From an uncultured bacterium (lineage in GTDB: Bacteria; Patescibacteriota; Dojkabacteria; J137), in the NCBI GenBank assembly GCA_963700155.1, contig OY969472.1, forward strand, positions 517,059-581,058: a DNA stretch of 64,000 nt, in the 5' to 3' direction. Both the position numbers and the translations under genes were made by a program. This document shows, piece by piece, positions 14,443-52,394 of the stretch. How positions within the stretch are numbered: the stretch's first letter is position 1; each line of letters begins with the position of its first letter. Under the pieces are notes generated by a model. It worked only from the letters and a program-made list of their open reading frames with translations. It did not search any database and was not told where the DNA came from.

Positions 14443-15930
14443 ATGCCAAAGGTAAAAATAATACTAATTATTGTTTTTGTGCTTTCTTTTTTTGTTAGTT
14501 TATTGCTTTTTCTAAAGTTTAATACTGTTGGATTTGAACAATCATTTAGGGCATATTTGGCATGGTATAACCCGACTGATGATAATTTAAAAAATTTCTA
14601 TGATATTTCGACTAGTCAAAATTTTTTATCTTCATTAAATTTTGAAAATCAGACTTTTAAAAACGGGACTGAATTGTTTGATTTCTTAAGGAATGAACAA
14701 AAGACAAACAATTCAGTCCCCGCAGTAGCTAAAGATAATCGAGACAGCAAAGTTCCAATTCAATTTGATGAAGAGAATATTGACGATACAAACCTTCCTC
14801 AGAAAATTACTTATGTATCACCTGGAGTTCTTGGATACTATGTATATAATTATGATCTAGTAAGATTCTCTCCTGATAAAAATACTCTTGAAAGCAAATA
14901 TTTAAATTTAAAAGAGAGTACTATTGATCCTATTTCAAAAAAGAATGTTACTGGTACAAAAGATTTAAAAACAGCAAAGACAGAAGTTAATAGTTATTTT
15001 AATAAACTTATAACTGATGTTGGCAATACAAACACATATGATGGCTTAACAAAAGAGAGTTTTAAAAAACTTGAAAACCACGAGGTTCTTGAAAATATTT
15101 CAGTTAATTCAATAAATTTTGTTGAAAAGAACTTTAAAGAAACTGAATTAAAAGATAACAAATTAATTATTGGAACGATAAATATTCACTTAGAAAACTG
15201 TTTTAAAGATTTTTCAGAAGATTTGAGTTTTTCTATCAATACCGGTGACATTCAAATTAATGACTTAAATGATTTTGTAAGTAACTTATGTAAAAAGCAA
15301 TTCGTTAAAGTTAATGGGGTAATTACCGGAACTTGTACTGATTGTACTTATTATCCAGCTGATAAATGGCATGCTTTAAGATCTGACTATACTCCCAAAA
15401 CTCAATTGATTGATTTCGCTCCGGGAGGACAATATATTAATACACAAGCATATAACGACTTTAAAGATTTATACAACGCAGCAAAAGCAGATGGAATATA
15501 TATTTATGTAACTTCAGGCTATCGTTCTTACAATACTCAAGTTGCGACATATCAAGGCTGGGTAAACACTGAACTTGCTGCTGGTTATTCTTTGTCTGAG
15601 GCAGAAGCTATTGCTAATACTTATTCAGCTCTTCCTGGGTACTCAGAGCACCAGCTTGGAACAGCGTTAGATTTAAATGGAGCAGGATGTGAAATTTCTG
15701 ATGGATATTGTTCAACAAACGAAACAATCTGGAACTGGCTTGCGGAAAATGCTTATAAATATGGGTTTGCACAATCATACCCTGAAGGAAAAGAGTCAAT
15801 TACAGGATATACCACCGAAAGGTGGCATTACAGGTGGATTGGGAAAGACTTAGCTGAAGAATATAAAAAAGCTGGAGGAGGAACAAAAATTACTTTAAAT
15901 GTATTTTTATTGAATAAAGGATTATATTAA
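14443..15930 (+). CDS. Membrane-anchored D,D-carboxypeptidase/peptidase M15 (VanY-like)
   Basis: N-terminal TM. C-terminal YVTSGYRSY…GYSEHQLGTALDL…W motifs fit the M15B Zn-peptidase family. Confidence 0.7.
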   Translation: MPKVKIILIIVFVLSFFVSLLLFLKFNTVGFEQSFRAYLAWYNPTDDNLKNFYDISTSQNFLSSLNFENQTFKNGTELFDFLRNEQKTNNSVPAVAKDNRDSKVPIQFDEENIDDTNLPQKITYVSPGVLGYYVYNYDLVRFSPDKNTLESKYLNLKESTIDPISKKNVTGTKDLKTAKTEVNSYFNKLITDVGNTNTYDGLTKESFKKLENHEVLENISVNSINFVEKNFKETELKDNKLIIGTINIHLENCFKDFSEDLSFSINTGDIQINDLNDFVSNLCKKQFVKVNGVITGTCTDCTYYPADKWHALRSDYTPKTQLIDFAPGGQYINTQAYNDFKDLYNAAKADGIYIYVTSGYRSYNTQVATYQGWVNTELAAGYSLSEAEAIANTYSALPGYSEHQLGTALDLNGAGCEISDGYCSTNETIWNWLAENAYKYGFAQSYPEGKESITGYTTERWHYRWIGKDLAEEYKKAGGGTKITLNVFLLNKGLY

Positions 15931-16670: not shown

Positions 16671-17582
16671 TTATCTAAAAATTAAGACTTGTCTAGCTCT
16701 AGCAGCAATTTGAAAGAGTTTATACCAAAAAGGTTCAATGATAAAATCGACTGTTTCTGCATAATTAATAACTCTCCCTCCAAAGCCAACTTTAAATCTT
16801 GAAAATCCATCATAAATTATCTCTCCACTTTCTGATTTACCAACTGATTTAATTCCCCATAAATCTAAACTTTTAAATCCATTTTGTTTTCCCCATTGGA
16901 TAATTTCCCAAACTAATGCATATGGAGCCATAACATTTTTAAATTCATCACTTGAACCTCCATATGGATAATAAATTACTTCTTCATATAAAAATAATAA
17001 CCAGGAGGCTAGTGGTTTTCCTTGAAAATATGCTGTAGCGATTGTTACAATTTTATCCGATTTTAAAGAATTCCATACTGTAGTTATATATTCTTTGCTT
17101 CGTCCATGGTAACCTTGACGAATAACAGTTGCTTCATAAAGTTTTAGGAATTCAGCAAAAGCATCTTCAGAGTCTGATATTTTAACTTCAACTCCTTTTT
17201 TGTGTGCTAAATTTAAGTTGTATCTATGCTTTTGCTTCATAGAGGCTAATAATTCTTCATCACTTATTGTTAAATTAATAGCTGTATTTTCTTGAAGATG
17301 AACTGGAATTCCTGATTTAAATTGATATTGAGAGGGAAGAGTTGCATTTTCAGAAATTAAATTTTCTGGGTCAATTGTTACATAAACACACTTAGCTTCT
17401 TTAGCTTTTCTATGCAGCTCTTCCCAATTTATCTTTGTTAAATCCGGACGTGGCATATATCCAACTGTTTTACCTATCAATGGTAGAGTAGTTGTTTGAA
17501 AAAAGTAACCTCCTACATCATAAACTTGATTTCCAAGACTCCTTTTACATTCCTTCCAGTATTTTGATTGTAAAAAATGCAT
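16671..17582 (-). CDS. FemAB-family peptidoglycan interpeptide-bridge aminoacyl transferase
   Basis: FemAB/GNAT-like pattern: …LDLWGIKS…FKVGFGG. 303 aa. Confidence 0.65.
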   Translation of the reverse strand: MHFLQSKYWKECKRSLGNQVYDVGGYFFQTTTLPLIGKTVGYMPRPDLTKINWEELHRKAKEAKCVYVTIDPENLISENATLPSQYQFKSGIPVHLQENTAINLTISDEELLASMKQKHRYNLNLAHKKGVEVKISDSEDAFAEFLKLYEATVIRQGYHGRSKEYITTVWNSLKSDKIVTIATAYFQGKPLASWLLFLYEEVIYYPYGGSSDEFKNVMAPYALVWEIIQWGKQNGFKSLDLWGIKSVGKSESGEIIYDGFSRFKVGFGGRVINYAETVDFIIEPFWYKLFQIAARARQVLIFR

Positions 17583-17583
17583 A

Positions 17584-18666
17584 TTAATATCTATCCTTTC
17601 TATAACTCCAGAAATCTATAGCTCTATGTAGTAAATATCTTAAATTATCATTATAAATTTCCATTGGACCAACATAATTAATTTCCTTTCCACCAAAACT
17701 TCTCTTGAATTCAGAAACCCCATTCATAGGATTTTTTGCCTTCTTGTTTTCAGGTAAAGATTTAGGCAGAATTCCCCACATATTATATTTTCTGAAACCT
17801 TTTTCTTTAGCATATTTCATTATCTCCCACTGTAAAAAATATGGAGAGCGGAGCTTTGACATAGTTCTATCAGATGTAGAAGCTCCATGAGTATAATAAG
17901 CTGTTTCATTATAGTAATTAATCAAAGCTCCGCTAATATATTTGGCTCTATATCTTGCTAAGAATATATCCGTCATTCCTTTAGGATTCAATGCATCAAA
18001 CTGCTTTTTGAAATATTCAAAATCATAGTTTCCAAAACCTTTTCTTTGAGTAGTTTCATTCATCAAATCTGAAAAGGCTTTAACTTCTTCAATTGTAGTA
18101 GCTTTTACTAATTCTAGTTCACTTCTTGATGACCGATTTATATTATATCTGGTCGAATCGCTCATTTTCGAGCGCAACTCATCCTCATTTTGATCTAAAT
18201 CTAACTCCCAGACATCTTTAGCTTGAGCAGGGGCGAGGGATGTTTTAAAGCCTAAATTCTTTAAATTTTCACTATATTTTTTAGGGAGCAGTGGATCAAA
18301 TCTGAAAAGAGTAAGGAAATTTTGGAATATATAATCCTGCATAAAGTTTTTTAACTGTGTAAAAAAATCTGCAAATTCTTGTTCATTCATAGGATCACCA
18401 ACTATAACTGGTCCATATGGAACATAAGCATATTTTATAAATTTCCTTCTGTAAATTTCTATATATAAAATTCCTATTTCATATTCTCTGTCGCCAACTT
18501 CAAGGATAATAAAATATTGATCAATTTCTTTTCCTAATGATTTTTGAAAATCGATCCAATTAATTGAAGAAAGAAATGAAGAATTTTCTGCTTCTAAATT
18601 TATTTTTTCCCATATTTGTTTTTTATCTTCACTATATTTTTCAAATTTTAGTAGCACAGAAATCAA
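17584..18666 (-). CDS. FemAB-family peptidoglycan interpeptide-bridge aminoacyl transferase (second paralog)
   Basis: YNMWGILP…EFKRSFGG. 360 aa. In tandem with the previous gene. Confidence 0.65.
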   Translation of the reverse strand: MISVLLKFEKYSEDKKQIWEKINLEAENSSFLSSINWIDFQKSLGKEIDQYFIILEVGDREYEIGILYIEIYRRKFIKYAYVPYGPVIVGDPMNEQEFADFFTQLKNFMQDYIFQNFLTLFRFDPLLPKKYSENLKNLGFKTSLAPAQAKDVWELDLDQNEDELRSKMSDSTRYNINRSSRSELELVKATTIEEVKAFSDLMNETTQRKGFGNYDFEYFKKQFDALNPKGMTDIFLARYRAKYISGALINYYNETAYYTHGASTSDRTMSKLRSPYFLQWEIMKYAKEKGFRKYNMWGILPKSLPENKKAKNPMNGVSEFKRSFGGKEINYVGPMEIYNDNLRYLLHRAIDFWSYRKDRY

Positions 18667-19396: not shown

Positions 19397-20542
19397 TTAA
19401 GCATCTCTTCTTAGAGGCATTAGAAGGTGAACAAATTTTGAATCATCTTTATCTTTAAAAACTGAAGCTGCCAATGGACCTTTAGTTTCAAAGATTATGG
19501 TGTCTCCTTTTATATGACTGACAACATCAGATATATATCGTAAATTGTAAGAAGCATTCAAATCACTTTCTCCATTTACAGAAGTCACTGGAATTAAAGT
19601 TTGATTTTCACCAACTTCAGCTACTACAGATTGCAACATAACAGTTGCGTTTTCTAGGTTGAGGTCAAAAAGTGTTTTGTATCCTAAATTACTTCTAGCA
19701 AAAGTATTAATGATCCTAATCGCAGATTCCAAATCTGACTTTTTGACCTCAAATGAATAGCTGAAAGAATCAGGCATTATCCTTTTATAATCAGGATAAG
19801 GTCCCTCTAATAATCTTATGCTGAATTCTATCTCTTCAAATTTAAAAATAACTTGGGATTTACTTTGACCTAAATAAACTTCAATACTATCAACATCAAC
19901 ATAATCTTGAATAATTTTAACCAATTCGCTTAAATATCTTGCCGGAACAATAACTTGTTCTGTTGGATATTCATTAACATCTTTTACTTTTGCACTACGC
20001 TTTGAAAGTCTAAAACCATCTAAACCAATAAAATTGATCTCACTTTTTTCTTTATCATATTCAAATAAAATTCCACTTTGCTGTATTTTTCCAGCTGATA
20101 AATCTGTTGATGAAGCAAAAATTACTTTATCCATTGATGCTAAAAATTCCTTTGCTGAAATTACAAACAGTGGAGTTTCTGAAACTTCTGGTAAAACAGG
20201 GAATTCGGTTGCCGGGATAGTAGTAAAATTAGCTTTTGAGTTTTCTGTTACAACATCTACTACATTATCATTCAAACTTAGTTCAACGTTATCTCCTACT
20301 GCTGCTGCAACAAAATCTGCAATGTATTTTGCTGATACAGTAACGCTTCCTTCTTGTTCAACTACTCCAGGTATCCACACATTTATCCCCATATCTAAGT
20401 TTGTTGCTGATAGTTTTAAACCATTCTTATTAACATCTAAAAGAACGTTTGAAAGTACTGGTATATTTGGTTTTAAACTAACAGCTCTACTTGTATATTG
20501 TAATGACTTTGAAAGGTTATCTCTGTTTAGTTTGATTTTCAT
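19397..20542 (-). CDS. dnaN: DNA polymerase III beta sliding clamp
   Basis: N-terminus MKIKLNRDNLSKSLQYTSRAVS…PVLSNVLL is typical DnaN. Three-domain length of 381 aa. Confidence 0.85.
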   Translation of the reverse strand: MKIKLNRDNLSKSLQYTSRAVSLKPNIPVLSNVLLDVNKNGLKLSATNLDMGINVWIPGVVEQEGSVTVSAKYIADFVAAAVGDNVELSLNDNVVDVVTENSKANFTTIPATEFPVLPEVSETPLFVISAKEFLASMDKVIFASSTDLSAGKIQQSGILFEYDKEKSEINFIGLDGFRLSKRSAKVKDVNEYPTEQVIVPARYLSELVKIIQDYVDVDSIEVYLGQSKSQVIFKFEEIEFSIRLLEGPYPDYKRIMPDSFSYSFEVKKSDLESAIRIINTFARSNLGYKTLFDLNLENATVMLQSVVAEVGENQTLIPVTSVNGESDLNASYNLRYISDVVSHIKGDTIIFETKGPLAASVFKDKDDSKFVHLLMPLRRDA

Positions 20543-20856
20543 ATCTAAATATAATTTTTAATAAGTAGTTATTTTTAGTTATAGTGTCTGTTGATATGTG
20601 TATATGTTTTAATAATAGCTTATAGAACTTACATTTTCAATGATTTTGAGGTGTGAATAAGTGATGTGGATTAAAAATTAAGCATTTTCGTTGATCGTTA
20701 ATTAAGTATTTGATTATATCCAATTTTTATTGTGATGAGTTTTTGTAGAACTTTTGGGAAAGTTTTCTAGTATCCTATTTTGTTAAGATTTTTAGCGTGT
20801 GGAAAACTGAATAATATTACTGTACAAGAATTATATTAATATTCTATAATCCATAC
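20543..20856. promoter_or_regulatory. AT-rich non-coding region with DnaA-box-like 9-mers (candidate oriC/DUE or dnaN promoter region)
   Basis: tgtgaataa, tgtggatta and tgtggaaaa each lie within 1 mismatch of TGTGGATAA. The region is 314 bp, extremely AT-rich and non-coding. Confidence 0.35.
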
Positions 20857-21795
20857 ATGTTTAATCCTATAGACAATTTAAAATTAAAAGAAGTTGAAAA
20901 TTCAGAAAATAAAACTATTGGAGAAATTGCACAGAAACTTTCTAATTTAATGAGTAATAAATATTTTTTTTACTTTTTTTCTTCTCATTATCACTCTCCA
21001 CAATTAGATATTCATAGAGTTGATGACTTAAATTCTTTTTTATATAAATTTAAAGGTGTTTTTAGAGACATGAGTTCCTATCTTAAAAAGGATAAGGATT
21101 TTATAAATCTATTTCTTGAATTATTAAATTTTTTAGTTAAAGAAAAAGAATTTTATGAAGCTGTTAAATTACTAGATGAAACATTTGGATTTAATTTTCT
21201 ACACTATGAATGGATACAAGAAATTTATAAAAAAGCAATGGATTCTGAAGAGTATTTCCAAGCTTATTACATAATAAAATTAATTGAAAATAGAATTAAG
21301 TTGTTAATGATTACATTTCCAAATGATTCACCACAAGAACTTTTAGAAAAAGAGTATAGAGAATGTTTAGGAATTTTATTGAATAACTTTCTTGATGATA
21401 CTTCTGCAATAACTGAAAGTGAATTATTCGAAAAAACAAAAACATTACCGAAAATTTTAGCAATATTGAAGAATGATGAAATACTAGGTTTTAATATTTT
21501 GAAATCTCGAGACTATACTCCATATTTCATGGATATAATTTTATATGATTTTATTAAAAGAATTGTAGATTTAACTTGGACATTTAGAGGTGAAATATAT
21601 GATATACAATTTGATTCTGAAAATTTGCCTGACATATATTATCTTTATAATATTTCTACAAATACTAGTAAGTATCTTACATTACCAGAAAATAAAATGG
21701 TTCATATTTCACGAGTGGCTGAATATTTAGAACTAAAATTAAAAGATATTGAGTTCATTTTTATTGAAGATAAAAAGCAAGATGTGGAATCTTAA
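20857..21795 (+). CDS. Hypothetical protein (312 aa) inserted between dnaN and dnaA
   Basis: ORF only. No motif recognised. Confidence 0.4.
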   Translation: MFNPIDNLKLKEVENSENKTIGEIAQKLSNLMSNKYFFYFFSSHYHSPQLDIHRVDDLNSFLYKFKGVFRDMSSYLKKDKDFINLFLELLNFLVKEKEFYEAVKLLDETFGFNFLHYEWIQEIYKKAMDSEEYFQAYYIIKLIENRIKLLMITFPNDSPQELLEKEYRECLGILLNNFLDDTSAITESELFEKTKTLPKILAILKNDEILGFNILKSRDYTPYFMDIILYDFIKRIVDLTWTFRGEIYDIQFDSENLPDIYYLYNISTNTSKYLTLPENKMVHISRVAEYLELKLKDIEFIFIEDKKQDVES

Positions 21796-21800
21796 ACTTA

Positions 21801-22523
21801 TTAATTTTCTAAACTACTATAATATGGTGTTTTTTCTAGTAATTCTGGAGGTAGAATAGATAATAAAGATAAATCATTATTAATTCTATAATCATATAGA
21901 TAAATATTATAGGAATCTGTATTCAAACCGTCTTTTCTGTATCGAATATATATATCAATGTGTGCAAGTTTTAAAGTTCCATCAAGATCAAGTTCTTCTG
22001 TAAAAATAAACTTAACTTGCTCAATATTTTCTTCATTGACTCCTATTTTGTAGTTATCAACAAAAAATTTTTTTACAGCTGGAGTAAATCTGGCTGAATA
22101 TTCTACGACCTTAAAGCCATGTATATTAGTATTATTCTTATCTATAAGCTCATGAATTTGGTTTAAAGTAGTAACATTAATAATAGCTGGCTCGAAAAAA
22201 ACTCCTTCTGTATCTGTTTGTTCAATAATTAATGATCCATTTTCGTCAAATTTAAAAACAGCTAGATTATTTCCAAAATAATACTCAAAATGAATATCAG
22301 AAATTGTTAAATCTGAATTCATCTCGCTCCTAGATAAATTTATTTCTCTATAAAGTATATTAAAAAGGGTATATTGAGTTGTCGGCAGTTTAAAAGATTT
22401 TCGAAAATCTACGCCTGACGAAGCTATTCCAGATAAAATACTTAAAATTAAATAAAGAGATAATATCCTTTTTAGAATAAAAGGACGGTTAAAATTGTTT
22501 TGAATATCATCAATTTTATCCAT
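21801..22523 (-). CDS. Hypothetical membrane-anchored protein immediately downstream of dnaA
   Basis: N-terminal TM helix. Lies 5 nt after the dnaA stop. Confidence 0.4.
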   Translation of the reverse strand: MDKIDDIQNNFNRPFILKRILSLYLILSILSGIASSGVDFRKSFKLPTTQYTLFNILYREINLSRSEMNSDLTISDIHFEYYFGNNLAVFKFDENGSLIIEQTDTEGVFFEPAIINVTTLNQIHELIDKNNTNIHGFKVVEYSARFTPAVKKFFVDNYKIGVNEENIEQVKFIFTEELDLDGTLKLAHIDIYIRYRKDGLNTDSYNIYLYDYRINNDLSLLSILPPELLEKTPYYSSLEN

Positions 22524-22528
22524 TAAAT

Positions 22529-23938
22529 TTATTCTACATCCTCCGTTACAGCGGCATTATCTTGAATATTTGTTATTACTTGTGCAACTTGAGAATTAAA
22601 TCCATCCTGAATCATCATTTTGCTTTTAATCTTATCAAGTGCATGAAGCACAGTTGTATGATCAGTCCTTTTTAAATATTTTGCGACTTCTTCAAGTTTA
22701 TAACTAAATTCTTCTCTTAAGATATACATTGCAACTTGTCTTGCCAAAGCCAACTCCTTTGTTCTTCTCGGACCTTTTAAATCTTTTACAGTAACGCCAA
22801 ATGATTTAGCAACTTCTCTAATAACTTGAGGCACTTTAATCTGGGATCTTTTTGTTTGCGAATCTTTTCCAATTGTATGTGCAACTTCTTCTAATGTTAA
22901 ATCTCCATTCGGTTTCATTTGATTAAATAAAGCTACTTTTTGAAGTGCCCCTTCAAGCTCTCTTACATTATCCGAAATATTTCTAGCCAAGTACTCTAAA
23001 ATTGGCATTTTTAAATTATAGCCGGAGTTTTCAGATTTTCTGTATAAGATTGCAAGGCGAGTTTCATAATCCGGATTTGAAATATCAACTACCATCCCGC
23101 CTTGCATTCTAGTTCTTAATCTACTTTCCATATTTTGAATATCCTCAGGTCTTCTATCGGCAATTAAAATAATTTGTTTACCAGCATTATAAAGTTCATT
23201 GAAAGTATTGAAGAATTCTTCTTGAGTGTGAACCCATTTTGAAATAAGTTGCATATCATCAATAATAAGCATATCCGTTGGTCTATATTTAGCTCTAAAT
23301 TTCTCCATTTGCCCTGTTTTAATTCCTTTTACCATCTCATTCAAAAATCCTTCAGATGGTGTATAAATTATTTTTTTACTAGGATTCCTTTCTAAAATTG
23401 ATCTACCAATTGCTTGTGCCAAGTGTGTTTTCCCAACACCGGTTTTCCCATGAATAAATAAAGGATTGTATGATTGACCAGGTCTTTCAATAATTGCTAA
23501 AGCTGCAGCATGTGCAATTTTATTTGCATTTCCTACAATATAATTTGACATTGTATATTTAGGATTTAATCCGGATTTAGTAACAGCTTCAATTACATTA
23601 CCCATAAATCCATTCTCAACATCAAGTAAAGGTGAGGATGATATATTTTTTGGTTCATTTTCAGCTTCATCTTCTTTTTGTTCATGAGTAACTTCAAAAA
23701 CTGGATTTAAAACATCTCCATAAACATAACTAATTGTGTCTTTAATCATTTTTTCGTATCTATTTTTTATCCAATCAGAAATGAAGGGATTAGGTACTCC
23801 GATTATTGCTTTATTACCATCTATTTTAACTAATCTAGTTTCTTGAAAATATGTTTTAAATTGAGCAGGTGCGTCCAGTTTAATCTCTATTTGAGCTAGG
23901 GTCGTTTTCCAGAGCTGTTTTTCATCTCTAATTTTCAT
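22529..23938 (-). CDS. dnaA: Chromosomal replication initiator DnaA
   Basis: AAA+ Walker A/B (GKTGVGKTHL, DDMQ), C-terminal DnaA-box binding helix. The likely start is the internal Met (MKIRDEKQLWKTTLAQ), whereas the ORF track extends to 23992. Confidence 0.9.
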   Translation of the reverse strand: MKIRDEKQLWKTTLAQIEIKLDAPAQFKTYFQETRLVKIDGNKAIIGVPNPFISDWIKNRYEKMIKDTISYVYGDVLNPVFEVTHEQKEDEAENEPKNISSSPLLDVENGFMGNVIEAVTKSGLNPKYTMSNYIVGNANKIAHAAALAIIERPGQSYNPLFIHGKTGVGKTHLAQAIGRSILERNPSKKIIYTPSEGFLNEMVKGIKTGQMEKFRAKYRPTDMLIIDDMQLISKWVHTQEEFFNTFNELYNAGKQIILIADRRPEDIQNMESRLRTRMQGGMVVDISNPDYETRLAILYRKSENSGYNLKMPILEYLARNISDNVRELEGALQKVALFNQMKPNGDLTLEEVAHTIGKDSQTKRSQIKVPQVIREVAKSFGVTVKDLKGPRRTKELALARQVAMYILREEFSYKLEEVAKYLKRTDHTTVLHALDKIKSKMMIQDGFNSQVAQVITNIQDNAAVTEDVE

Positions 23939-24020
23939 AGGTTTAAAGTAATGGTTAAAGAATATATACTTAAATGAAATAAGTATTTGCAAAAGCTATT
24001 TTTTTAGTGCTGAATTTTTT

Positions 24021-44696: not shown

Positions 44697-46424
44697 ATGA
44701 ATGACATTAAATCTGATTTACAAAATAACTTAACAGAAGCTTTAAAAAGTCTAGGTATTAAAGATGTTGAAATTGAAATAGAAAGACCAAAAGATGAATC
44801 ACATGGGGATTTTTCTTCTAATGTATCTATGAAATTATCAGCAGTTCTAAAGAAAAATCCCTTACAAATTGCACAAGAATTAGTAACTGAACTTGATAAA
44901 AACAAATTGGAATCTATAGAAAAAATTGAAGCTGTAAATCCAGGATTTATTAATTTCTATATCAAAAAATCTGCTTATTTAAATATCCTTGAAAATGTAA
45001 TATCACTTTCAGATAAATTCGGAGCAAACAATATTGGAGAAGGAAAAAATGTTATTGTTGAATTTAGTTCCCCAAATATTGCGAAACCGTTTACTATTGG
45101 ACATTTGCGATCAACTATTATTGGTGATTCAATTGCAAAAATTTTAGAGTTCTCAGGATATAAAGTTTTTAGAGATAATCATTTAGGTGATTGGGGAGCT
45201 TCATTCGGTAAGTATCTGGCTGCATTTGAACATTACAATATAGATATTGAAGAGATCAAAAAATCCGATCGTCCAATAAAGCAGCTTGTAGATTTATATA
45301 TAAAATTTACTCAAGACTCCGAAGAAAATCCTGATCTTAAAGAATTAGGACGAGAGTGGTTTAAAAAACTAGAAGATGGAGATGAAAAAGCTAGAAAACT
45401 TTGGCAGGAATGTATAAATATATCATTTATTGAATTTGATAAAGTTTATAAAAAACTTAATGTTTCTTTTACAGAAAATGAAGGTAAAGGTTATGGTGAA
45501 TCTTTTTTTGAAGACAAAATGCCTGCAGTTATAAAAGAGTTAGAAGAAGCAAATGAACAAAAGAGAGTAGATTATCATAAAAGTGAAGGTGCAATGCTGG
45601 TGTTCTTTCCTAAAGAAGAACTCCCCCCAATGATGGTTTTAAAAAGCAATGGGACAACACTTTACTCAACTCGAGATTTGGCAACAGATAAGTATAGAAA
45701 AGAAAATTCGAGATACGGATACCCAAATTTGACTGTAATAAATGAAACTGGAATAGAGCAGAGTCTTTATTGGAAACAAATTTTTAAAACTGAAGAGATG
45801 CTAGGTTGGTACAAAAAAGGAGAACGTATTGCAATAATGCATGGATTGTACAGATTTAAAGAAGGAAAAATGTCTACTAGAAAAGGAAATGTTATTTGGC
45901 TTGAAGATGTGCTAAATGAATCAATCAATAGAGCTGAAAAACTATCCAAAGAAGAAGAGGCTGAATTGCCAGTTAAAATAGGGGTAGGTGCAATAAAATG
46001 GAATGATTTAAAAAGGGATCCTAAACAAGATATTGTTTTTGATTGGGAAGAGATTCTAAATTTAAAAGGTAATTCAAGTCCTTATATTCAATATACTTAT
46101 GTTCGAGCAAATAAAATTGGAAAAACTAATAATTTTGATTTTAATGATATAACTCCAAACGAAGAAGAAGGAAAAGTTCTAGATTTAATATCTCAGTTTG
46201 GTCAAATTATTGAGTATTCAGCACAAAATTATCAATCCAGTACTATTTGTACCTATTTATTTAATCTTTCTCAATCTTATAGCACCTTCTATGAAAAACA
46301 TAGAATTTTAAATGCTGAAGATGAAAAAACAAAAAATTTTCGAATAGCTTTATCTCAGGCAACAGCTCAGGTAATCAAGAATGGTTTAAATCTGCTGGGA
46401 ATTGAAACTGTAGAAAGAATGTAA
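44697..46424 (+). CDS. argS: Arginine--tRNA ligase
   Basis: Class I HIGH-type motif (PFTIGHLRSTIIGD), anticodon-binding C-terminal DALR domain. 575 aa. Confidence 0.9.
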   Translation: MNDIKSDLQNNLTEALKSLGIKDVEIEIERPKDESHGDFSSNVSMKLSAVLKKNPLQIAQELVTELDKNKLESIEKIEAVNPGFINFYIKKSAYLNILENVISLSDKFGANNIGEGKNVIVEFSSPNIAKPFTIGHLRSTIIGDSIAKILEFSGYKVFRDNHLGDWGASFGKYLAAFEHYNIDIEEIKKSDRPIKQLVDLYIKFTQDSEENPDLKELGREWFKKLEDGDEKARKLWQECINISFIEFDKVYKKLNVSFTENEGKGYGESFFEDKMPAVIKELEEANEQKRVDYHKSEGAMLVFFPKEELPPMMVLKSNGTTLYSTRDLATDKYRKENSRYGYPNLTVINETGIEQSLYWKQIFKTEEMLGWYKKGERIAIMHGLYRFKEGKMSTRKGNVIWLEDVLNESINRAEKLSKEEEAELPVKIGVGAIKWNDLKRDPKQDIVFDWEEILNLKGNSSPYIQYTYVRANKIGKTNNFDFNDITPNEEEGKVLDLISQFGQIIEYSAQNYQSSTICTYLFNLSQSYSTFYEKHRILNAEDEKTKNFRIALSQATAQVIKNGLNLLGIETVERM

Positions 46425-48800: not shown

Positions 48801-48887
48801 TTTAGAAAATATGATACTACTAACTATACTCAGTGTGATCTTTAAGATCAAACTTTCACAATGGTATAATCTTTTTGCAGTATTTAT

Positions 48888-48961
48888 GTACCCATAGCTC
48901 AACTGGATAGAGCACTACTTTGCGGAAGTAGCGGTTGGAGGTTCGACCCCTCTTGGGTACA
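48888..48961 (+). tRNA. tRNA-Arg (anticodon GCG by hand-folding)
   Basis: 7-bp acceptor stem gtaccca/tgggtac, D-loop with A20, anticodon stem ctact/agtag with loop ttGCGga, T-loop ttcgacc, discriminator A73. No encoded CCA. Confidence 0.75.
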
Positions 48962-49049
48962 GTTAAGCTTCTGTATCTCCTTAAATATTAAAAATTCCAA
49001 CATATCATATTATAAATGTTAAAATTTTTTAAATATTACACATCTGAAA

Positions 49050-49475
49050 ATGAGAATTGCAGTAATTGATGATAAACCTGATGATAATACAAAATGTATT
49101 TTAAAATTATTATTCAATCGAATAGGAGAAGATGTGGAATTTGTTGAAGCTGTCACTATTACTGAGGCGGAAGAATTGACAAGACAGATTTTGGATGGAC
49201 AAGTTGGAGTTGATTTTATAATTTGCGATAGAGAAATGGATAAGTCTAACTCTAAATTAACAGCAACAAAATTTGCGCGACAATTAAAGGAAAGAAATTT
49301 CCCAGTCATAACCTGGAGCTATGGTATTAATCCGATGCATCAAGATGCTGGTCATTATTTTGTAAATAAATTAAACTTTACAGATTGGTGTGAGTTTTTA
49401 ATTACTCAAGAGTTCTTAGATAAACTATCTGAATTAAAAAGTTTGAGAGAAAATAATGAAGTTAAATTTAATTAA
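49050..49475 (+). CDS. Stand-alone receiver (CheY-like) domain protein
   Basis: IAVIDD…DFIICD… pattern. 141 aa. Confidence 0.45.
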   Translation: MRIAVIDDKPDDNTKCILKLLFNRIGEDVEFVEAVTITEAEELTRQILDGQVGVDFIICDREMDKSNSKLTATKFARQLKERNFPVITWSYGINPMHQDAGHYFVNKLNFTDWCEFLITQEFLDKLSELKSLRENNEVKFN

Positions 49476-49521
49476 TGTCAAAACCACTAACAAACACAAA
49501 AATAAAAGCACTAAATAAAGA
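49474..49521 (+). repeat. 48-bp direct repeat, copy 1 (a duplicated 5' end of the spoU/trmH gene, encoding MSKPLTNTKIKALNK…)
   Basis: Identical over all 48 nt to 51243-51290 (aatgtcaaaaccactaacaaacacaaaaataaaagcactaaataaaga). Read as an ORF it gives 17 codons and then a stop. Confidence 0.85.
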
Positions 49522-50252
49522 TGAATAATCAAGAATTTCTAGAAAAAGATTTTGATTTAAAATATCTTAACATCGCACAATCTAATATCTTAGTGCGTAG
49601 AACACTTGATTTGATAAAATTACATAGAAATTCTCAAGTTTTTATTCTACTTGCTTACAGTGCTTCGCCATTCGAAATCTTAATAAGAAATTTGTGGAAG
49701 AAAGCATATCCTTATATTCAAATTCCCCAATTTATTCATCTTAATATAGGACATAAAACATCAATTGCAATGAGATTAAATGATAAAAGCTCTATAACTG
49801 ATATTGTAGATTATCAATCAAGATATTACTTAGAAGATGAGCTAAAAGATGTAAAGAATGTAACATTTGTTGATGATGTCTCTTATACTGGAGAAACAGA
49901 AGAACTGGTAAGAAACCTTATCAATTTTATCGATTCAAAGATAAATTCTAGTTATTTCCCTTTTATTCATGGTTCCTTATCTGGGTCACCAAGTACTGAA
50001 GAAATAGCTTTCTGGAATGATGATGAAGACTTTTCATCTAGAATTTTTATGCCTTGGAAGAAAAAAACACAGTTTGGTAGTACTAATTATGTTAATTGGT
50101 CCCCAATGGAAGATAGGAAGTATATTTTAAGTCATCAACCTGACTCGACTGATACTGAAAAATACGGGGTTGCTTCGGAAATAGAAGTAGAGTTAGAGAA
50201 AATTTCAAACTTATTAGATACAAATTTGGTTAAAAAATATTTATCTAGTTAA
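49521..50252 (+). CDS. Phosphoribosyltransferase (type I PRTase)-like protein
   Basis: VTFVDDVSYTGETEELV matches the PRPP-binding motif (hydrophobic-DD-x-x-TG-xT). 243 aa. Confidence 0.45.
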   Translation: MNNQEFLEKDFDLKYLNIAQSNILVRRTLDLIKLHRNSQVFILLAYSASPFEILIRNLWKKAYPYIQIPQFIHLNIGHKTSIAMRLNDKSSITDIVDYQSRYYLEDELKDVKNVTFVDDVSYTGETEELVRNLINFIDSKINSSYFPFIHGSLSGSPSTEEIAFWNDDEDFSSRIFMPWKKKTQFGSTNYVNWSPMEDRKYILSHQPDSTDTEKYGVASEIEVELEKISNLLDTNLVKKYLSS

Positions 50253-51241
50253 TGCCATTTATTATGATAAAAGCAGAAAGCTCCTCACCTGGAAAGTTAA
50301 TATTAGCCGGAGAGCATGTTGTTTTGTATGGTTATAAAGCATTAGCATTTCCTATTAATAAAAATACAAAAGTATTAGTTCAAGATTCTAACCATGAAAA
50401 TACAATAAAAATATATCTAAAAAATTTTAATAAAATTCTTCAAGTTACAAAAAGTAGAGTCCATAGAATCAATCTTAAAGATAAGAATACTTTAATAACT
50501 CTAAGGACCCTAAAGTTTTTCTTTGAAAGATTTCATGTAGATATTAATAACGGATTGGATTTATTTGTAAATTCTCAGATCCCTATTGGGGGATTTGGAT
50601 CTTCAACTTCTGTAAGTGCTTCAATTCTTAAAGCGTTTTTCAAAATGTTTAATATTGAAGTTAAAGATAAAGATCTTATAGATTATGTAATAGAGATTGA
50701 ATCTATTAATGGAATAAAGGTTAGCGGATTAGATCAGACAGTTATAGTTGAAAATTCTCCAATCTCTTTCATAAAAAAAGGAGAAATAAATTCATACAAA
50801 AAGATTTATCCCAAAAATAAATATATTAAAAATTGCGTAATAATAGATACGGGAAGACCAAATGAAGTTACAGGAGAAGTCGTAAAATTTATTAAGGAAC
50901 AGTATAATTCTGATTATAGAAATATCAAAATTGTATTTGATAATATTGGTAAGTATTGTTCAATTCTTGAAAGATTCGTTCAAGAGAGTGATACTTTGCA
51001 AATTCTAGATATTATTAGTTCCATTGGAGAAGAGCTAGTGAAATTAAAAATAGTTACTCCTTATTGTCAAGATATAATATCGGATTTAAAAAAACTTGGT
51101 GCAAGTTCAAAAATTTCCGGTGCTGGTGCTATCACTGGTAATGGATGCGGAGCTTTAATATGTTTTACAAATAATACTAGTCCAGTTATTAAATATTTAG
51201 ATTCAAGAAACATTAAATATTTTATTACTAACCTATTTTAA
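50252..51241 (+). CDS. GHMP kinase, mevalonate-kinase-like
   Basis: N-terminal SPGKLILAGEHVVLYGYKALAFPIN (compare MVK APGKVILFGEHAVV) and ATP motif PIGGFGSSTSVSA. 329 aa. TAATG overlap with the upstream gene. Confidence 0.6.
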   Translation: MPFIMIKAESSSPGKLILAGEHVVLYGYKALAFPINKNTKVLVQDSNHENTIKIYLKNFNKILQVTKSRVHRINLKDKNTLITLRTLKFFFERFHVDINNGLDLFVNSQIPIGGFGSSTSVSASILKAFFKMFNIEVKDKDLIDYVIEIESINGIKVSGLDQTVIVENSPISFIKKGEINSYKKIYPKNKYIKNCVIIDTGRPNEVTGEVVKFIKEQYNSDYRNIKIVFDNIGKYCSILERFVQESDTLQILDIISSIGEELVKLKIVTPYCQDIISDLKKLGASSKISGAGAITGNGCGALICFTNNTSPVIKYLDSRNIKYFITNLF

Positions 51242-51242
51242 G

Positions 51243-51290
51243 AATGTCAAAACCACTAACAAACACAAAAATAAAAGCACTAAATAAAGA
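51243..51290 (+). repeat. 48-bp direct repeat, copy 2 (authentic 5' end of the spoU/trmH gene)
   Basis: Identical to 49474-49521. Confidence 0.85.
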
Positions 51291-51774
51291 ATTTTCAAAA
51301 AATATTCCACAAGATTTGGAACTAATTTTTATACTTCAAGATGTAGAAGATCCATATAATGTCGGAAGCATATTTAGAACTGCTGATGCTTGTGGAGCTG
51401 GAATAATATTAACTGGAAATACACCAACTCCAGGAAAAACTCCTGAAATTTCAAAAAATTCTATGGGAATGGAGCGGAAAGTAGATTGGCAGTATTATGA
51501 AAATATTGAAGAAGTAATCGGGAGTTTAAAACAAAATGGTTTTGATATTGTAGGAATAGAAGTTACAGAAGATGCTGTGTCATACGATGAATATGCTTAC
51601 AAACGCAGAACTGCATTAGTACTGGGGAATGAAGCCATTGGGATTTATAAGAAAAATCTGGGCCTTTGCAATAAAATTGTATACATTCCAATGCTGGGCA
51701 AAGGCCCCTCTCTCAACGTAAATATAGCCGGAGCTATTGTAGGGTATGAGATAATTAGTAAGAATAAATCTTAA
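51244..51774 (+). CDS. SpoU/TrmH-family RNA 2'-O-methyltransferase (SPOUT)
   Basis: DPYNVGSIFRTADACGAGIIL…N…IPM…SLNV motifs. 176 aa. Confidence 0.75.
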   Translation: MSKPLTNTKIKALNKEFSKNIPQDLELIFILQDVEDPYNVGSIFRTADACGAGIILTGNTPTPGKTPEISKNSMGMERKVDWQYYENIEEVIGSLKQNGFDIVGIEVTEDAVSYDEYAYKRRTALVLGNEAIGIYKKNLGLCNKIVYIPMLGKGPSLNVNIAGAIVGYEIISKNKS

Positions 51775-51784
51775 TCAATTAATA

Positions 51785-52252
51785 ATGGCTTTAATCGATA
51801 ATCCGCCTGGGAGTTATGAAGCATATAGAAGTGATCTATTAGTCCAAAGATATGAGTTGATTCGAAGGCTTAAAGAACTTAGAGATAAAAGCTATGCTCC
51901 TTCAAAGATTTTAAATTTATTAATAACTAGTCTTTCAGTATTTGTAAAAGATGAGGAACTAATGTCTCGAGATGAGCTAGTAAATTTTCATAAATCATAT
52001 TCGAACGAAGGTTGGGTTGCAGCTTATGTAGAATTATATGTAAAGTTAAGAGTATTGCGTATGAATCTACAGGCTAGGGGATTTCCTTTTAACGTAGAAT
52101 CTGATCTAAGAAAAACTATTGCAGAGTTGATAAAAAGCTCGACTAATACTCCAACACCTAGAACTCGTAACTTTTTCAGGGAGTATAAGCAAAGTTTAGA
52201 TAGTTTATATAAATTAGTGATAATGATCCCAAGAAATTATGATGAGATTTAA
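51785..52252 (+). CDS. Hypothetical protein (155 aa)
   Basis: ORF only. Confidence 0.4.
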   Translation: MALIDNPPGSYEAYRSDLLVQRYELIRRLKELRDKSYAPSKILNLLITSLSVFVKDEELMSRDELVNFHKSYSNEGWVAAYVELYVKLRVLRMNLQARGFPFNVESDLRKTIAELIKSSTNTPTPRTRNFFREYKQSLDSLYKLVIMIPRNYDEI

Positions 52253-52277
52253 TAATCAGGTATAATTCATAGCACAT

Positions 52278-52363
52278 GGAGGGTTGCTGGAGTGGTCTAA
52301 CAGGCCCGTCTCGAAAACGGGAATCCAGAAATGGATACACAGGTTCAAATCCTGTACCCTCCG
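52278..52363 (+). tRNA. tRNA-Ser (anticodon CGA), type II with long variable arm
   Basis: Acceptor ggagggt/accctcc, 3-bp D-stem, anticodon stem cccgt/acggg with loop ctCGAaa, variable-arm hairpin tcca/tgga, T-loop ttcaaat, discriminator G73. Confidence 0.8.
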
Positions 52364-52394
52364 AATAAATCTTACCTGAATAAATATTCTTTAT

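What the first reader, a model, noticed from the sequence alone, without database searches (positions are those of the whole stretch)
49474..51290. Two-gene cassette (PRTase-like + mevalonate-kinase-like GHMP kinase) bracketed by a perfect 48-bp direct repeat that duplicates the 5' end of the spoU/trmH gene
The 48 nt beginning at the spoU ATG region (51243-51290) recur exactly at 49474-49521, where they encode only MSKPLTNTKIKALNKDE* before the cassette's first gene begins. The 1.77 kb between the copies holds two translationally coupled genes (TAATG overlap). The first has a PRPP-binding PRTase motif. The second is a GHMP kinase with strikingly MVK-like motifs, yet no other mevalonate-pathway genes are nearby. 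A long perfect flanking duplication is the footprint of a recent insertion or recombination event (cassette capture at the gene start). The PRTase-plus-GHMP-kinase pairing does not correspond to a standard pathway module I can name.
Basis: seen in the sequence. Interest (0 to 1): 0.75.

Follow-up and report, generated by a model that had tools for sequence, protein, structure and literature searches.

The report
Duplicated gene start marks merged operons
A perfect 48-base copy of the start of a tRNA-methylase gene is a recent recombination scar, left where two alternative upstream neighbours of that gene were joined in one small bacterial genome; one of them is a rare kinase-plus-phosphoribosyltransferase gene pair of unknown function.

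Summary
An exact 48-nt direct repeat (49474-49521 and 51243-51290) brackets two overlapping genes. It occurs only twice in the window, and none is expected by chance.

Relatives (Candidatus Dojkabacteria, CPR) show what happened. The stretch between tRNA-Arg(GCG) and spoU/tRNA-Ser(CGA) is a variable slot.
- One relative has the receiver-like gene fused to spoU by the same TAATG overlap.
- Another has the PRTase-like/kinase pair fused to spoU, with no receiver-like gene and no repeat.
- The window carries both in series, joined through a second copy of spoU nucleotides 1-47. Only one junction is new.

The two copies are identical, whereas the same stretch differs by 7-12 nt between species. So the merger is recent, or the copies are kept identical. 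No transposase, integrase or inverted repeats were found.

The upstream copy is now a 17-codon ORF positioned to pass ribosomes from the receiver-like gene into the cassette.

The cassette is a conserved pair. It recurs in L001 and, with reversed gene order, in an unrelated contig. It combines a mevalonate-kinase-family kinase with a type I PRTase-fold protein whose best structural matches are PRPP-dependent O-ribofuranosyltransferases. Its substrates are unknown.

Moderately interesting.

The parts
48887..48962 (+). tRNA-Arg (anticodon GCG). Conserved left border of the variable slot.
   Evidence: ARAGORN and Rfam. The same tRNA lies upstream of spoU in L001, L005, L006/7, L009/10 and L094.
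49050..49475 (+). Receiver-like gene (141 aa), function unverified. Its stop overlaps the ATG of repeat copy 1 (TAATG).
   Evidence: No Pfam, NCBIfam or PDB sequence hit. It is 40-42% identical to the 137-aa protein directly upstream of spoU in L005, with the same C-terminus NEV(K/R)FN*.
49474..49521 (+). Repeat copy 1 (R1): 1 nt plus spoU nt 1-47. Its left flank is the native receiver-like/spoU junction. Its right end is the only new junction (AAAGA|TGAATAA).
49475..49528 (+). 17-codon ORF (MSKPLTNTKIKALNKDE*) made from R1. It starts on the receiver-like gene's stop and ends 5 nt after the PRTase-like ATG (ATGAATAA). Inferred to act as a translational bridge.
   Evidence: Read from the sequence. 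The coupling function is an inference.
49521..50252 (+). PRTase-like gene (243 aa). It has a type I PRTase fold and the PRPP-loop motif VTFVDDVSYTGET (residues 114-126).
50252..51241 (+). GHMP kinase of the mevalonate-kinase family (329 aa). Motifs PGKLILAGEH (13-22), PIGGFGSS (111-118), SGLDQ (158-162), ISGAGA (288-293).
   Evidence: PF00288 at 1.2e-11. TIGR00549 at 138 bits against a cut-off of 163. All 8 PDB hits are mevalonate kinases, best 1kkh at 1e-18 over the full length. Motif positions.
51243..51290 (+). Repeat copy 2 (R2): the true start of spoU. Its left flank is homologous to the kinase/spoU junction of L001.
51244..51774 (+). spoU/trmH-family RNA 2'-O-methyltransferase (176 aa). 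Conserved anchor gene of the locus.
   Evidence: PF00588 at 2.4e-34. Orthologues are 69-74% identical in L005, L006, L008 and L001.
51785..52252 (+). 155-aa ORF between spoU and tRNA-Ser. It is absent from L001 and L005, so it is a further lineage-specific addition to the operon.
   Evidence: Only a weak PHROG hit.
52277..52364 (+). tRNA-Ser (anticodon CGA). Conserved right border of the locus.

Best explanation
The 48-nt repeat is a recent recombination scar.

Background: in this group of Candidatus Dojkabacteria, spoU/trmH sits between tRNA-Arg(GCG) and tRNA-Ser(CGA). The space between tRNA-Arg and the spoU start is a variable slot holding different genes in different species.

The event:
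- Two of these architectures were joined in the window's lineage. One is receiver-like gene then spoU, as in L005. The other is PRTase-like gene, kinase, then spoU, as in L001.
- The product is receiver-like / spoU[1-47] / PRTase-like / kinase / full spoU.
- It needs only one illegitimate join, between spoU nt 47 and the PRTase-like ATG. Homologous pairing on the other side (spoU/tRNA-Ser, or tRNA-Arg) would complete it.
- Possible routes are homology-facilitated illegitimate recombination of incoming DNA, or integration followed by deletion of most of a redundant spoU copy.
- Both parents must have come from the same species-level population, because the two copies are identical.

Consequence: the upstream copy is a 17-codon ORF. 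It starts on the stop of the receiver-like gene and ends just after the PRTase-like start codon. Translational coupling can therefore run through the whole operon.

The cassette is a conserved two-enzyme module:
- an ATP-dependent kinase of the mevalonate-kinase family;
- a PRPP-binding type I PRTase-fold protein, most similar in structure to enzymes that transfer ribose-5-phosphate from PRPP onto a hydroxyl group.

What is shown and what is inferred:
- Shown: the repeat, the junction homologies, the synteny, the folds and the conserved pairing.
- Inferred: the recombination route, the coupling role of the short ORF, and the substrates (mevalonate or a related hydroxy acid for the kinase; PRPP plus an O-acceptor for the transferase).
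For: Repeat and reads:
- The repeat is exact and unique.
- Raw-read unitigs break exactly k-1 into the repeat from both sides, and one of them contains the new junction.

Relatives:
- L005 (spoU 74% identical; syntenic ArgRS and Wzy_C) reads tRNA-Arg ... receiver-like, TAATG, spoU, tRNA-Ser, without the cassette.
- L001 (spoU 69%) reads tRNA-Arg, PRTase-like, kinase, spoU, tRNA-Ser, without the receiver-like gene and without a repeat.
- In alignment A2 the flank left of R1 matches L005's junction and the flank left of R2 matches L001's junction.
- The orthologous 47 nt differ by 7-12 nt between species, against 0 between R1 and R2.
- No relative holds a second copy of its spoU start, even allowing 14 mismatches.
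- Other occupants of the slot are seen in L006/7, L009/10, L094 and L092.

No sign of a mobile element or foreign origin:
- No recombinase or transposase domain in the window ORFs scanned.
- Cassette GC is 27.8%, within the window's 30.2 +/- 2.2%.

The module:
- The overlapping kinase/PRTase-like pair recurs in L001 and, with reversed gene order, in the unrelated contig L097.
- Kinase family assignment.
- PRTase fold.
Against: - Only single relatives represent each parental architecture, and none belongs to the same species. The direction of the event (cassette in, or receiver-like gene in) and the route cannot be told.
- Both the receiver-like gene and the cassette occur in early-diverging branches. 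An old combined arrangement with later losses therefore remains possible.
- A k=31 graph cannot tell one chromosomal copy from tandem copies or a 1769-bp circle.
- The substrates are untested.
- The kinase is as close to a kinase that sits next to a true diphosphomevalonate decarboxylase (32%) as to the other PRTase-linked kinase (30%). It may simply be the organism's mevalonate kinase.
Confidence: 0.55

Rival explanations
1. The structure is old and maintained. The common ancestor of the window, L001 and the L005 clade already had receiver-like / R / cassette / R / spoU. Recombination between the repeats deleted the cassette precisely in the L005 line, and L001 lost the receiver-like gene plus R1. 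In the window the two copies are kept identical by gene conversion.
For: - The receiver-like gene (window, L005) and the cassette (window, L001) are each shared across deep branches of the spoU tree.
- L005's precise receiver-like/TAATG/spoU junction is exactly what repeat-by-repeat deletion would leave.
Against: - It requires 48 nt to stay identical while the orthologous stretch diverged 15-25%.
- L001 has no trace of R1.
- It needs several independent losses.
- The slot is demonstrably exchangeable, with at least six different contents.
Confidence: 0.15
2. The cassette is a small non-autonomous integrative element. A 1769-bp circle (cassette plus the 48-mer) integrates at the spoU start by site-specific or Campbell-type recombination, using a recombinase supplied in trans. 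The 48-mer then acts as attL/attR.
For: - Perfect direct repeats flank the insert.
- The read graph is compatible with a circle.
- The locus is flanked by tRNA genes and is hypervariable.
- L005 has a prophage-like block with a serine recombinase about 3 kb downstream of tRNA-Ser.
Against: - No recombinase in the cassette or among the window ORFs scanned.
- No inverted repeats at the cassette ends.
- L001 carries the cassette at the same place without repeats.
- L097 carries the pair elsewhere, in reversed order, without spoU.
- No match in viral contigs.
- The composition is native.
Confidence: 0.1
3. The linear arrangement in the deposited genome misrepresents a mixture. It could be tandem amplification of cassette plus repeat, or a population in which only some cells carry the insertion.
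For: With k=31 the 48-nt repeat collapses in the graph. Copy number and linkage cannot be read from unitigs L003 and L096.
Against: - The repeat-to-PRTase-like junction is in the reads. A simple two-strain bubble of receiver-like/spoU and cassette/spoU cannot produce it.
- The deposited contig is 1.14 Mb, apparently complete.
Confidence: 0.08
4. A rival for function only. The kinase is simply the organism's housekeeping mevalonate kinase, feeding a standard CPR mevalonate pathway encoded elsewhere. The PRTase-like protein is an unrelated or regulatory neighbour, for example a purine-salvage PRTase or a PyrR/PurR-like sensor.
For: - Dojkabacteria are reported to have mevalonate-pathway enzymes (PMC6107057).
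- A CPR-type kinase next to a true decarboxylase scores about the same on TIGR00549 (151 against 138-140) and is 32% identical to the window kinase.
- The catalytic motifs are intact.
- HGPRT and PyrR are good fold matches.
Against: - The kinase is translationally coupled to the PRTase-like gene in three contigs, with two gene orders, and never lies next to other mevalonate genes.
- Close relatives lack the pair at this locus.
- Only three related kinases were retrieved from 5.8 billion proteins by the word-indexed search.
Confidence: 0.35

Closest known systems
Homology-facilitated illegitimate recombination, and Campbell-type single-crossover integration (general knowledge, not tested here)
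   Same: There is one homologous anchor plus one illegitimate join. This leaves foreign or alternative DNA next to the anchor and can duplicate the anchor's edge as a perfect direct repeat. No element-encoded machinery is needed.
   Different: The route is inferred from a single product. No donor from the same species is available. Microhomology at the new junction cannot be assessed beyond the shared A.
Target-site duplications of transposons and insertion sequences
   Same: Direct repeats of target sequence flank an insert.
   Different: These duplications are typically 2-14 bp, and here the repeat is 47-48 nt. There are no terminal inverted repeats and no transposase.
tRNA-flanked variable regions and genomic islets (att-flanked islands)
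   Same: The locus is framed by two tRNA genes and its content differs between related species. Direct repeats flank one variant.
   Different: The repeat is the 5' end of a protein-coding gene, not the 3' end of a tRNA. There is no integrase. The variants hold only one to three genes.
Mevalonate kinase (GHMP family; TIGR00549, PDB 1kkh)
   Same: It is the best family match over the full length. Motifs I-III and the catalytic Lys and Asp positions align.
   Different: The score is below the curated cut-off (138 against 163). No mevalonate-pathway neighbour is present. The gene is coupled instead to a PRTase-like gene.
PRPP-dependent glycan ribofuranosyltransferases (gPRT domain of 7shg; CriT of Bcs3, 8a0c)
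   Different: The known enzymes work with a HAD-type phosphatase inside polysaccharide gene clusters. Here the partner is a kinase, and no phosphatase or glycan-export genes accompany it. Sequence identity is only 12-13%.
6-oxopurine PRTases and PyrR (type I PRTases)
   Same: The PRPP loop V-D-D-x-S-x-T-G-x-T is present, and the family has a conserved 'PW' motif. The family profile hits S. solfataricus GpT-2 at 8.7e-10, and HGPRT is the best Foldseek match.
   Different: The protein itself gets no PF00156 hit. The Arg of the family's 'SARP' loop is Ser in the cassette subfamily. Only about 120 residues align with these enzymes.

Membership tests
Mevalonate kinase (TIGR00549 equivalog) | Score at or above the curated cut-off (163 bits) | tested here: not met
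   138 bits. The L001 orthologue scores 140, the L097 kinase 116, and a CPR-type kinase next to a true decarboxylase also falls short at 151.
Mevalonate kinase (TIGR00549 equivalog) | GHMP motifs I-III and the catalytic Lys/Asp aligned to solved mevalonate kinases | tested here: met
   Full-length alignment to 1kkh. PGKLILAGEH, PIGGFGSS, SGLDQ and ISGAGA are all present.
Mevalonate kinase (TIGR00549 equivalog) | Genomic company of other mevalonate-pathway genes | tested here: not met
   None in the 64-kb window, in L001 or in L097. The rest of the 1.14-Mb genome could not be read.
Mevalonate kinase (TIGR00549 equivalog) | Phosphorylates mevalonate | not testable with these tools
   Needs an enzyme assay.
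Type I phosphoribosyltransferase | PRPP-binding loop (hydrophobic strand, two acidic residues, x2, S/T-G-x-T) | tested here: met
   VTFVDDVSYTGET at residues 114-126. It is conserved in P0002 and across the family.
Type I phosphoribosyltransferase | Match to Pfam PF00156 | tested here: not met
   The protein itself gets no hit at E<=1. 6 of 36 family members hit, best 2.4e-6.
Type I phosphoribosyltransferase | PRTase fold | tested here: met
   [not shown]
PRPP-dependent glycan ribofuranosyltransferase (gPRT/CriT) | Structural similarity to the gPRT/CriT catalytic module | tested here: met
   [not shown]
PRPP-dependent glycan ribofuranosyltransferase (gPRT/CriT) | Partner HAD-type phosphatase that removes the 5-phosphate | tested here: not met
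   No such neighbour in the window, L001 or L097. No conserved neighbour in 80 loci of the wider family.
PRPP-dependent glycan ribofuranosyltransferase (gPRT/CriT) | Lies in a polysaccharide biosynthesis or export cluster | tested here: inconclusive
   A weak Wzy_C-like gene lies 2 kb upstream, and glycosyltransferase genes lie at 31-34 kb. There is no ABC exporter for glycans and no contiguous cluster.
Transposon or IS insertion with target-site duplication | Short duplication, terminal inverted repeats, transposase | tested here: not met
   The repeat is 48 nt. There are no inverted repeats at the cassette ends. No transposase domain in the ORFs scanned.
Integrase-mediated integrative element (att repeats) | Flanking direct repeats | tested here: met
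Integrase-mediated integrative element (att repeats) | Integrase or recombinase gene in or next to the element, and the same att used in relatives | tested here: not met
   No recombinase in the window ORFs scanned. L001 has the cassette with no repeats.
Response-regulator receiver domain (upstream 141-aa gene) | Match to the receiver-domain family (PF00072) or to solved receiver domains | tested here: not met
   No Pfam or NCBIfam hit at E<=1. A profile of the two orthologues finds no receiver in the PDB. Only the DD/D/T/K pattern is seen by eye.
SpoU/TrmH RNA 2'-O-methyltransferase | Match to PF00588 above the cut-off | tested here: met
   118.9 bits against a cut-off of 29.7.

The most novel reading that the evidence does not exclude
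The mevalonate-kinase-like kinase and the PRTase-fold protein together form an undescribed PRPP-dependent pathway. It would phosphorylate and phosphoribosylate a small hydroxy acid or polyol, or an envelope acceptor. In this genome the pathway would be carried on a cassette that can be lost and regained by recombination between the 48-nt repeats, making it an on/off accessory operon at the spoU start.
Probability: 0.12. Interest if true: 0.7.

Novelty: new variant of a known kind. Interest (0 to 1): 0.45.

Why it matters
- It gives a clean, dated example of how operons are rebuilt in the very small genomes of CPR bacteria. Two alternative neighbours of one anchor gene were spliced together, and the leftover gene start now keeps translation coupled.
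- It shows that the tRNA-Arg/spoU/tRNA-Ser locus is a hotspot of gene turnover in Dojkabacteria.
- It flags a rare conserved gene pair, a mevalonate-kinase-family kinase with a PRPP-transferase-fold protein. It also flags a wider uncharacterised CPR protein family that resembles PRPP-dependent O-ribosyltransferases. Both are leads for new isoprenoid-related or envelope biochemistry in organisms whose metabolism is poorly known.

Tried and rejected
- Paralogy between the receiver-like gene and the PRTase-like gene, suggested by a 33-nt 76% repeat. BLASTP found nothing significant.
- Anti-phage defence system. PADLOC gave only an 18-bit match of the PRPP-loop region to a retron PRTase effector. 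PHROGs gave nothing useful.
- Phage origin. No relative in IMG/VR.
- Foreign composition. Cassette GC is within 1.1 SD of the window.
- Close relatives in GTDB species representatives. Only a 28% Flavobacteriales spoU was found.
- The first structure model, from 2 sequences, was too poor to use (pLDDT 53.6). It was replaced by a 36-sequence model.
- GHMP kinase as a regular neighbour of the wider PRTase-like family. None in 80 metagenome loci, and no conserved neighbour at all.
- A separate clade of 'PRTase-linked' kinases. Not supported, because the three kinase lineages and a decarboxylase-linked kinase are all about 30% identical to each other.
- Promoter and terminator scans were no better than shuffles.
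- Literature search for a described GHMP-kinase/PRTase pair. It found only RFAP synthase and ForT, which are GHMP-fold enzymes that themselves use PRPP. The kinase shows no match to those families.
- An empty-site allele of the same species. Only one sample carries this organism.
Full report
**Observation.** The 48-mer AATGTCAAAACCACTAACAAACACAAAAATAAAAGCACTAAATAAAGA occurs exactly twice in the window, at 49474-49521 and 51243-51290. There are no further matches with up to 3 mismatches, and none in 100 shuffles. The spacing is 1769 nt.

The downstream copy is the base before the ATG plus the first 47 nt of a SpoU/TrmH gene (51244-51774; PF00588, 118.9 bits). The upstream copy starts on the stop codon of a 141-aa gene (TAATG) and reads MSKPLTNTKIKALNKDE*. 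It ends 5 nt after the ATG of the next gene (ATGAATAA).

Between the copies lie a 243-aa and a 329-aa gene that overlap as TAATG.

Unitigs built independently from raw reads of ERR11571143 support the structure. L003 (1781 nt) is the cassette plus exactly 30 nt of repeat at each end. L096 carries the 141-aa gene and stops exactly 30 nt into the repeat. That is what a k=31 graph does at a real 48-nt repeat, and L003 contains the new junction. So the repeat is not an assembly artefact. Copy number and linkage cannot be read from such a graph.

**The genes.**
- The 329-aa protein is a GHMP kinase (PF00288). Its best family by far is mevalonate kinase: TIGR00549 at 138 bits (cut-off 163), with the next family at 36 bits. 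All eight PDB sequence hits are mevalonate kinases. The best is M. jannaschii 1kkh, 1e-18 over the full length, with motifs I-III and the catalytic Lys and Asp positions aligned.
- The 243-aa protein has no Pfam or NCBIfam hit but carries a PRPP-loop motif, VTFVDDVSYTGET.
- The 141-aa 'receiver' has no database support. Only a DD..D..T..K pattern is conserved with its orthologue.
- No mevalonate-pathway gene, recombinase or transposase was found among the window ORFs scanned: all ORFs of at least 100 aa from 35 to 64 kb, and all of at least 230 aa from 0 to 34 kb. A GHMP profile found only the cassette kinase.

**Relatives.** spoU homologues place the organism among Candidatus Dojkabacteria. 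The locus is framed by tRNA-Arg(GCG) and tRNA-Ser(CGA) in the window and in relatives.

| Locus | spoU identity to window | Content between tRNA-Arg and spoU |
|---|---|---|
| L005 | 74% | 77-aa gene (minus strand), then a 137-aa orthologue of the receiver-like gene (40% identical, same C-terminus NEV(K/R)FN*) running into spoU with the same TAATG overlap; no cassette; the same ArgRS and Wzy_C genes lie upstream |
| L001 | 69% | PRTase-like gene, kinase, spoU, tRNA-Ser; no receiver-like gene, no 155-aa ORF, no repeat |
| L006/L007 | 72% | an unrelated 132-aa gene |
| L009/L010 | 56% | a PdaC/DUF3298 gene |
| L094 | 51% | three other genes |
| L092 | 53% | a membrane protein; no tRNA-Arg was found in this locus |

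The stretch upstream of spoU is therefore a variable slot.

**Reading the repeat.**
- In alignment A2 the sequence left of copy 1 is homologous to L005's receiver-like/spoU junction. The sequence left of copy 2 is homologous to L001's kinase/spoU junction.
- The only junction without a counterpart is the right end of copy 1, where spoU nt 47 meets the PRTase-like ATG. That ATG is orthologous to L001's start codon.
- The window is therefore a merger of two native architectures that share the spoU start.
- It can be described equally well in two ways: the cassette plus 47 nt of spoU was inserted into a receiver-like/spoU operon, or the receiver-like gene plus 47 nt of spoU was inserted ahead of a cassette/spoU operon.
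- The orthologous 47 nt differ by 7-12 nt between these species, while the two copies differ by 0. No relative has a second copy of its spoU start, even a degenerate one.
- So the merger is recent, and both parents carried the same spoU sequence, meaning the same species-level population. The alternative is that the copies are homogenised.
- Cassette composition is native.
- I infer one illegitimate join plus homologous pairing in conserved flanks. The route could be homology-facilitated illegitimate recombination, or integration followed by deletion of most of a redundant spoU copy. The route itself is not shown.

**Alternatives for the repeat.**
- An old repeat-cassette-repeat structure with precise loss in L005. 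This fits the deep, patchy distribution of both occupants in the spoU tree, but it needs long-term homogenisation and several losses.
- A non-autonomous integrative circle. Nothing supports it beyond the repeats and the graph ambiguity.
- A mixture or tandem array. This cannot be excluded from k=31 unitigs.

**Consequence.** The upstream copy keeps the initiation context that the receiver-like gene used for spoU, and it terminates just past the PRTase-like ATG. The operon therefore reads as an unbroken chain of overlapping or nearly abutting ORFs: receiver-like gene, 17-codon ORF, PRTase-like gene, kinase, spoU, 155-aa ORF. Termination-reinitiation coupling is an inference.

**The cassette as a module.**
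- The PRTase-like protein is very rare. There is one close relative among 5.8 billion clusters. Only 35 representatives reach E<=1e-3 among 1.84 billion, and most belong to an uncharacterised family of about 240 aa.
- Six of 36 family members hit PF00156. The family profile hits S. solfataricus GpT-2 (8.7e-10), followed by HGPRT, APRT and PyrR.
- With the 36-sequence alignment, AlphaFold gives pLDDT 84.9 and pTM 0.85. Foldseek's best PDB matches are HGPRTs, at probability 1.0.
- In those enzymes the PRTase-like domain transfers ribofuranose-5-phosphate from PRPP to a hydroxyl group, and a HAD phosphatase then removes the phosphate (PMC10299916; PMC11231755). No such phosphatase accompanies this protein.
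- In 80 metagenome loci of the wider family there is no GHMP kinase and no conserved neighbour.
- A distant subfamily member, P0059 on the unrelated 49% GC contig L097, overlaps a mevalonate-kinase-like GHMP kinase (30% identical to the window's; TIGR00549, 116 bits). The gene order is reversed, and there is no spoU and no mevalonate gene nearby.
- A kinase/PRTase-like pair kept in three lineages and two gene orders is good evidence for a functional couple.

**What the kinase acts on is open.**
- It is as similar to a kinase that sits next to a true diphosphomevalonate decarboxylase (P0005, 32%) as to the L097 kinase (30%).
- Dojkabacteria are reported to have mevalonate-pathway enzymes (PMC6107057).
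- It may therefore be a genuine mevalonate kinase with an unexplained partner, or a derived paralogue. I could not read the rest of the genome to decide.

**Verdict.**
An empty site exists and the event is recent. But cassette/spoU is itself a native arrangement elsewhere, and there is no sign of a mobile-element mechanism.
- Both enzyme families and the kind of scar are known. The merger through a duplicated gene start, and the kinase/PRTase-fold pairing, are new variants.
- Interest is moderate.

Noticed in passing
window 48887-52364; L001, L005, L006/7, L009/10, L094, L092: The stretch between tRNA-Arg(GCG) and spoU/tRNA-Ser(CGA) holds a different gene set in every related genome examined, at least six contents in all. 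The downstream side of spoU also varies: a 155-aa ORF here, CYTH in L008, an HD-like ORF in L006. It is a small hotspot of gene turnover around one conserved anchor gene.
   Followed up: partly
L005 11442-16537: The closest relative has a prophage-like block about 3 kb downstream of tRNA-Ser: a large serine recombinase, a terminase and a ParB-N6 methyltransferase. A Schlafen/AlbA_2-HATPase gene also lies upstream of ArgRS where the window has NUDIX, HlyD, ABC and MacB genes.
   Followed up: no
window 44697-46424 vs L005 4005-5726: ArgRS is only 38% identical between the window and L005, although the neighbouring spoU is 74% and Wzy_C 55% identical. This is a strongly discordant rate, or one of the genes has been replaced.
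   Followed up: no
[not shown]
   Followed up: partly
window 19397-23992: dnaN (19397-20542, minus strand) and dnaA (22529-23992, minus strand) lie in the window, and the cumulative GC skew has its minimum near 24-25 kb. The replication origin is probably here, about 26 kb from the cassette.
   Followed up: no
window 48887-48962: The window's tRNA-Arg(GCG) differs in its acceptor and T stems from the nearly identical tRNA-Arg genes of L001, L005 and L006.
   Followed up: no
window 16671-18666: Two adjacent FemAB-family genes, a VanY-type D-Ala-D-Ala carboxypeptidase (14443-15930) and an SH3-domain protein point to a peptidoglycan cross-bridge cluster.
   Followed up: no
window 51785-52252: The 155-aa ORF added between spoU and tRNA-Ser has no family match except a weak PHROG hit (phrog_9275, E 0.0012). 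It is absent from L001 and L005.
   Followed up: no
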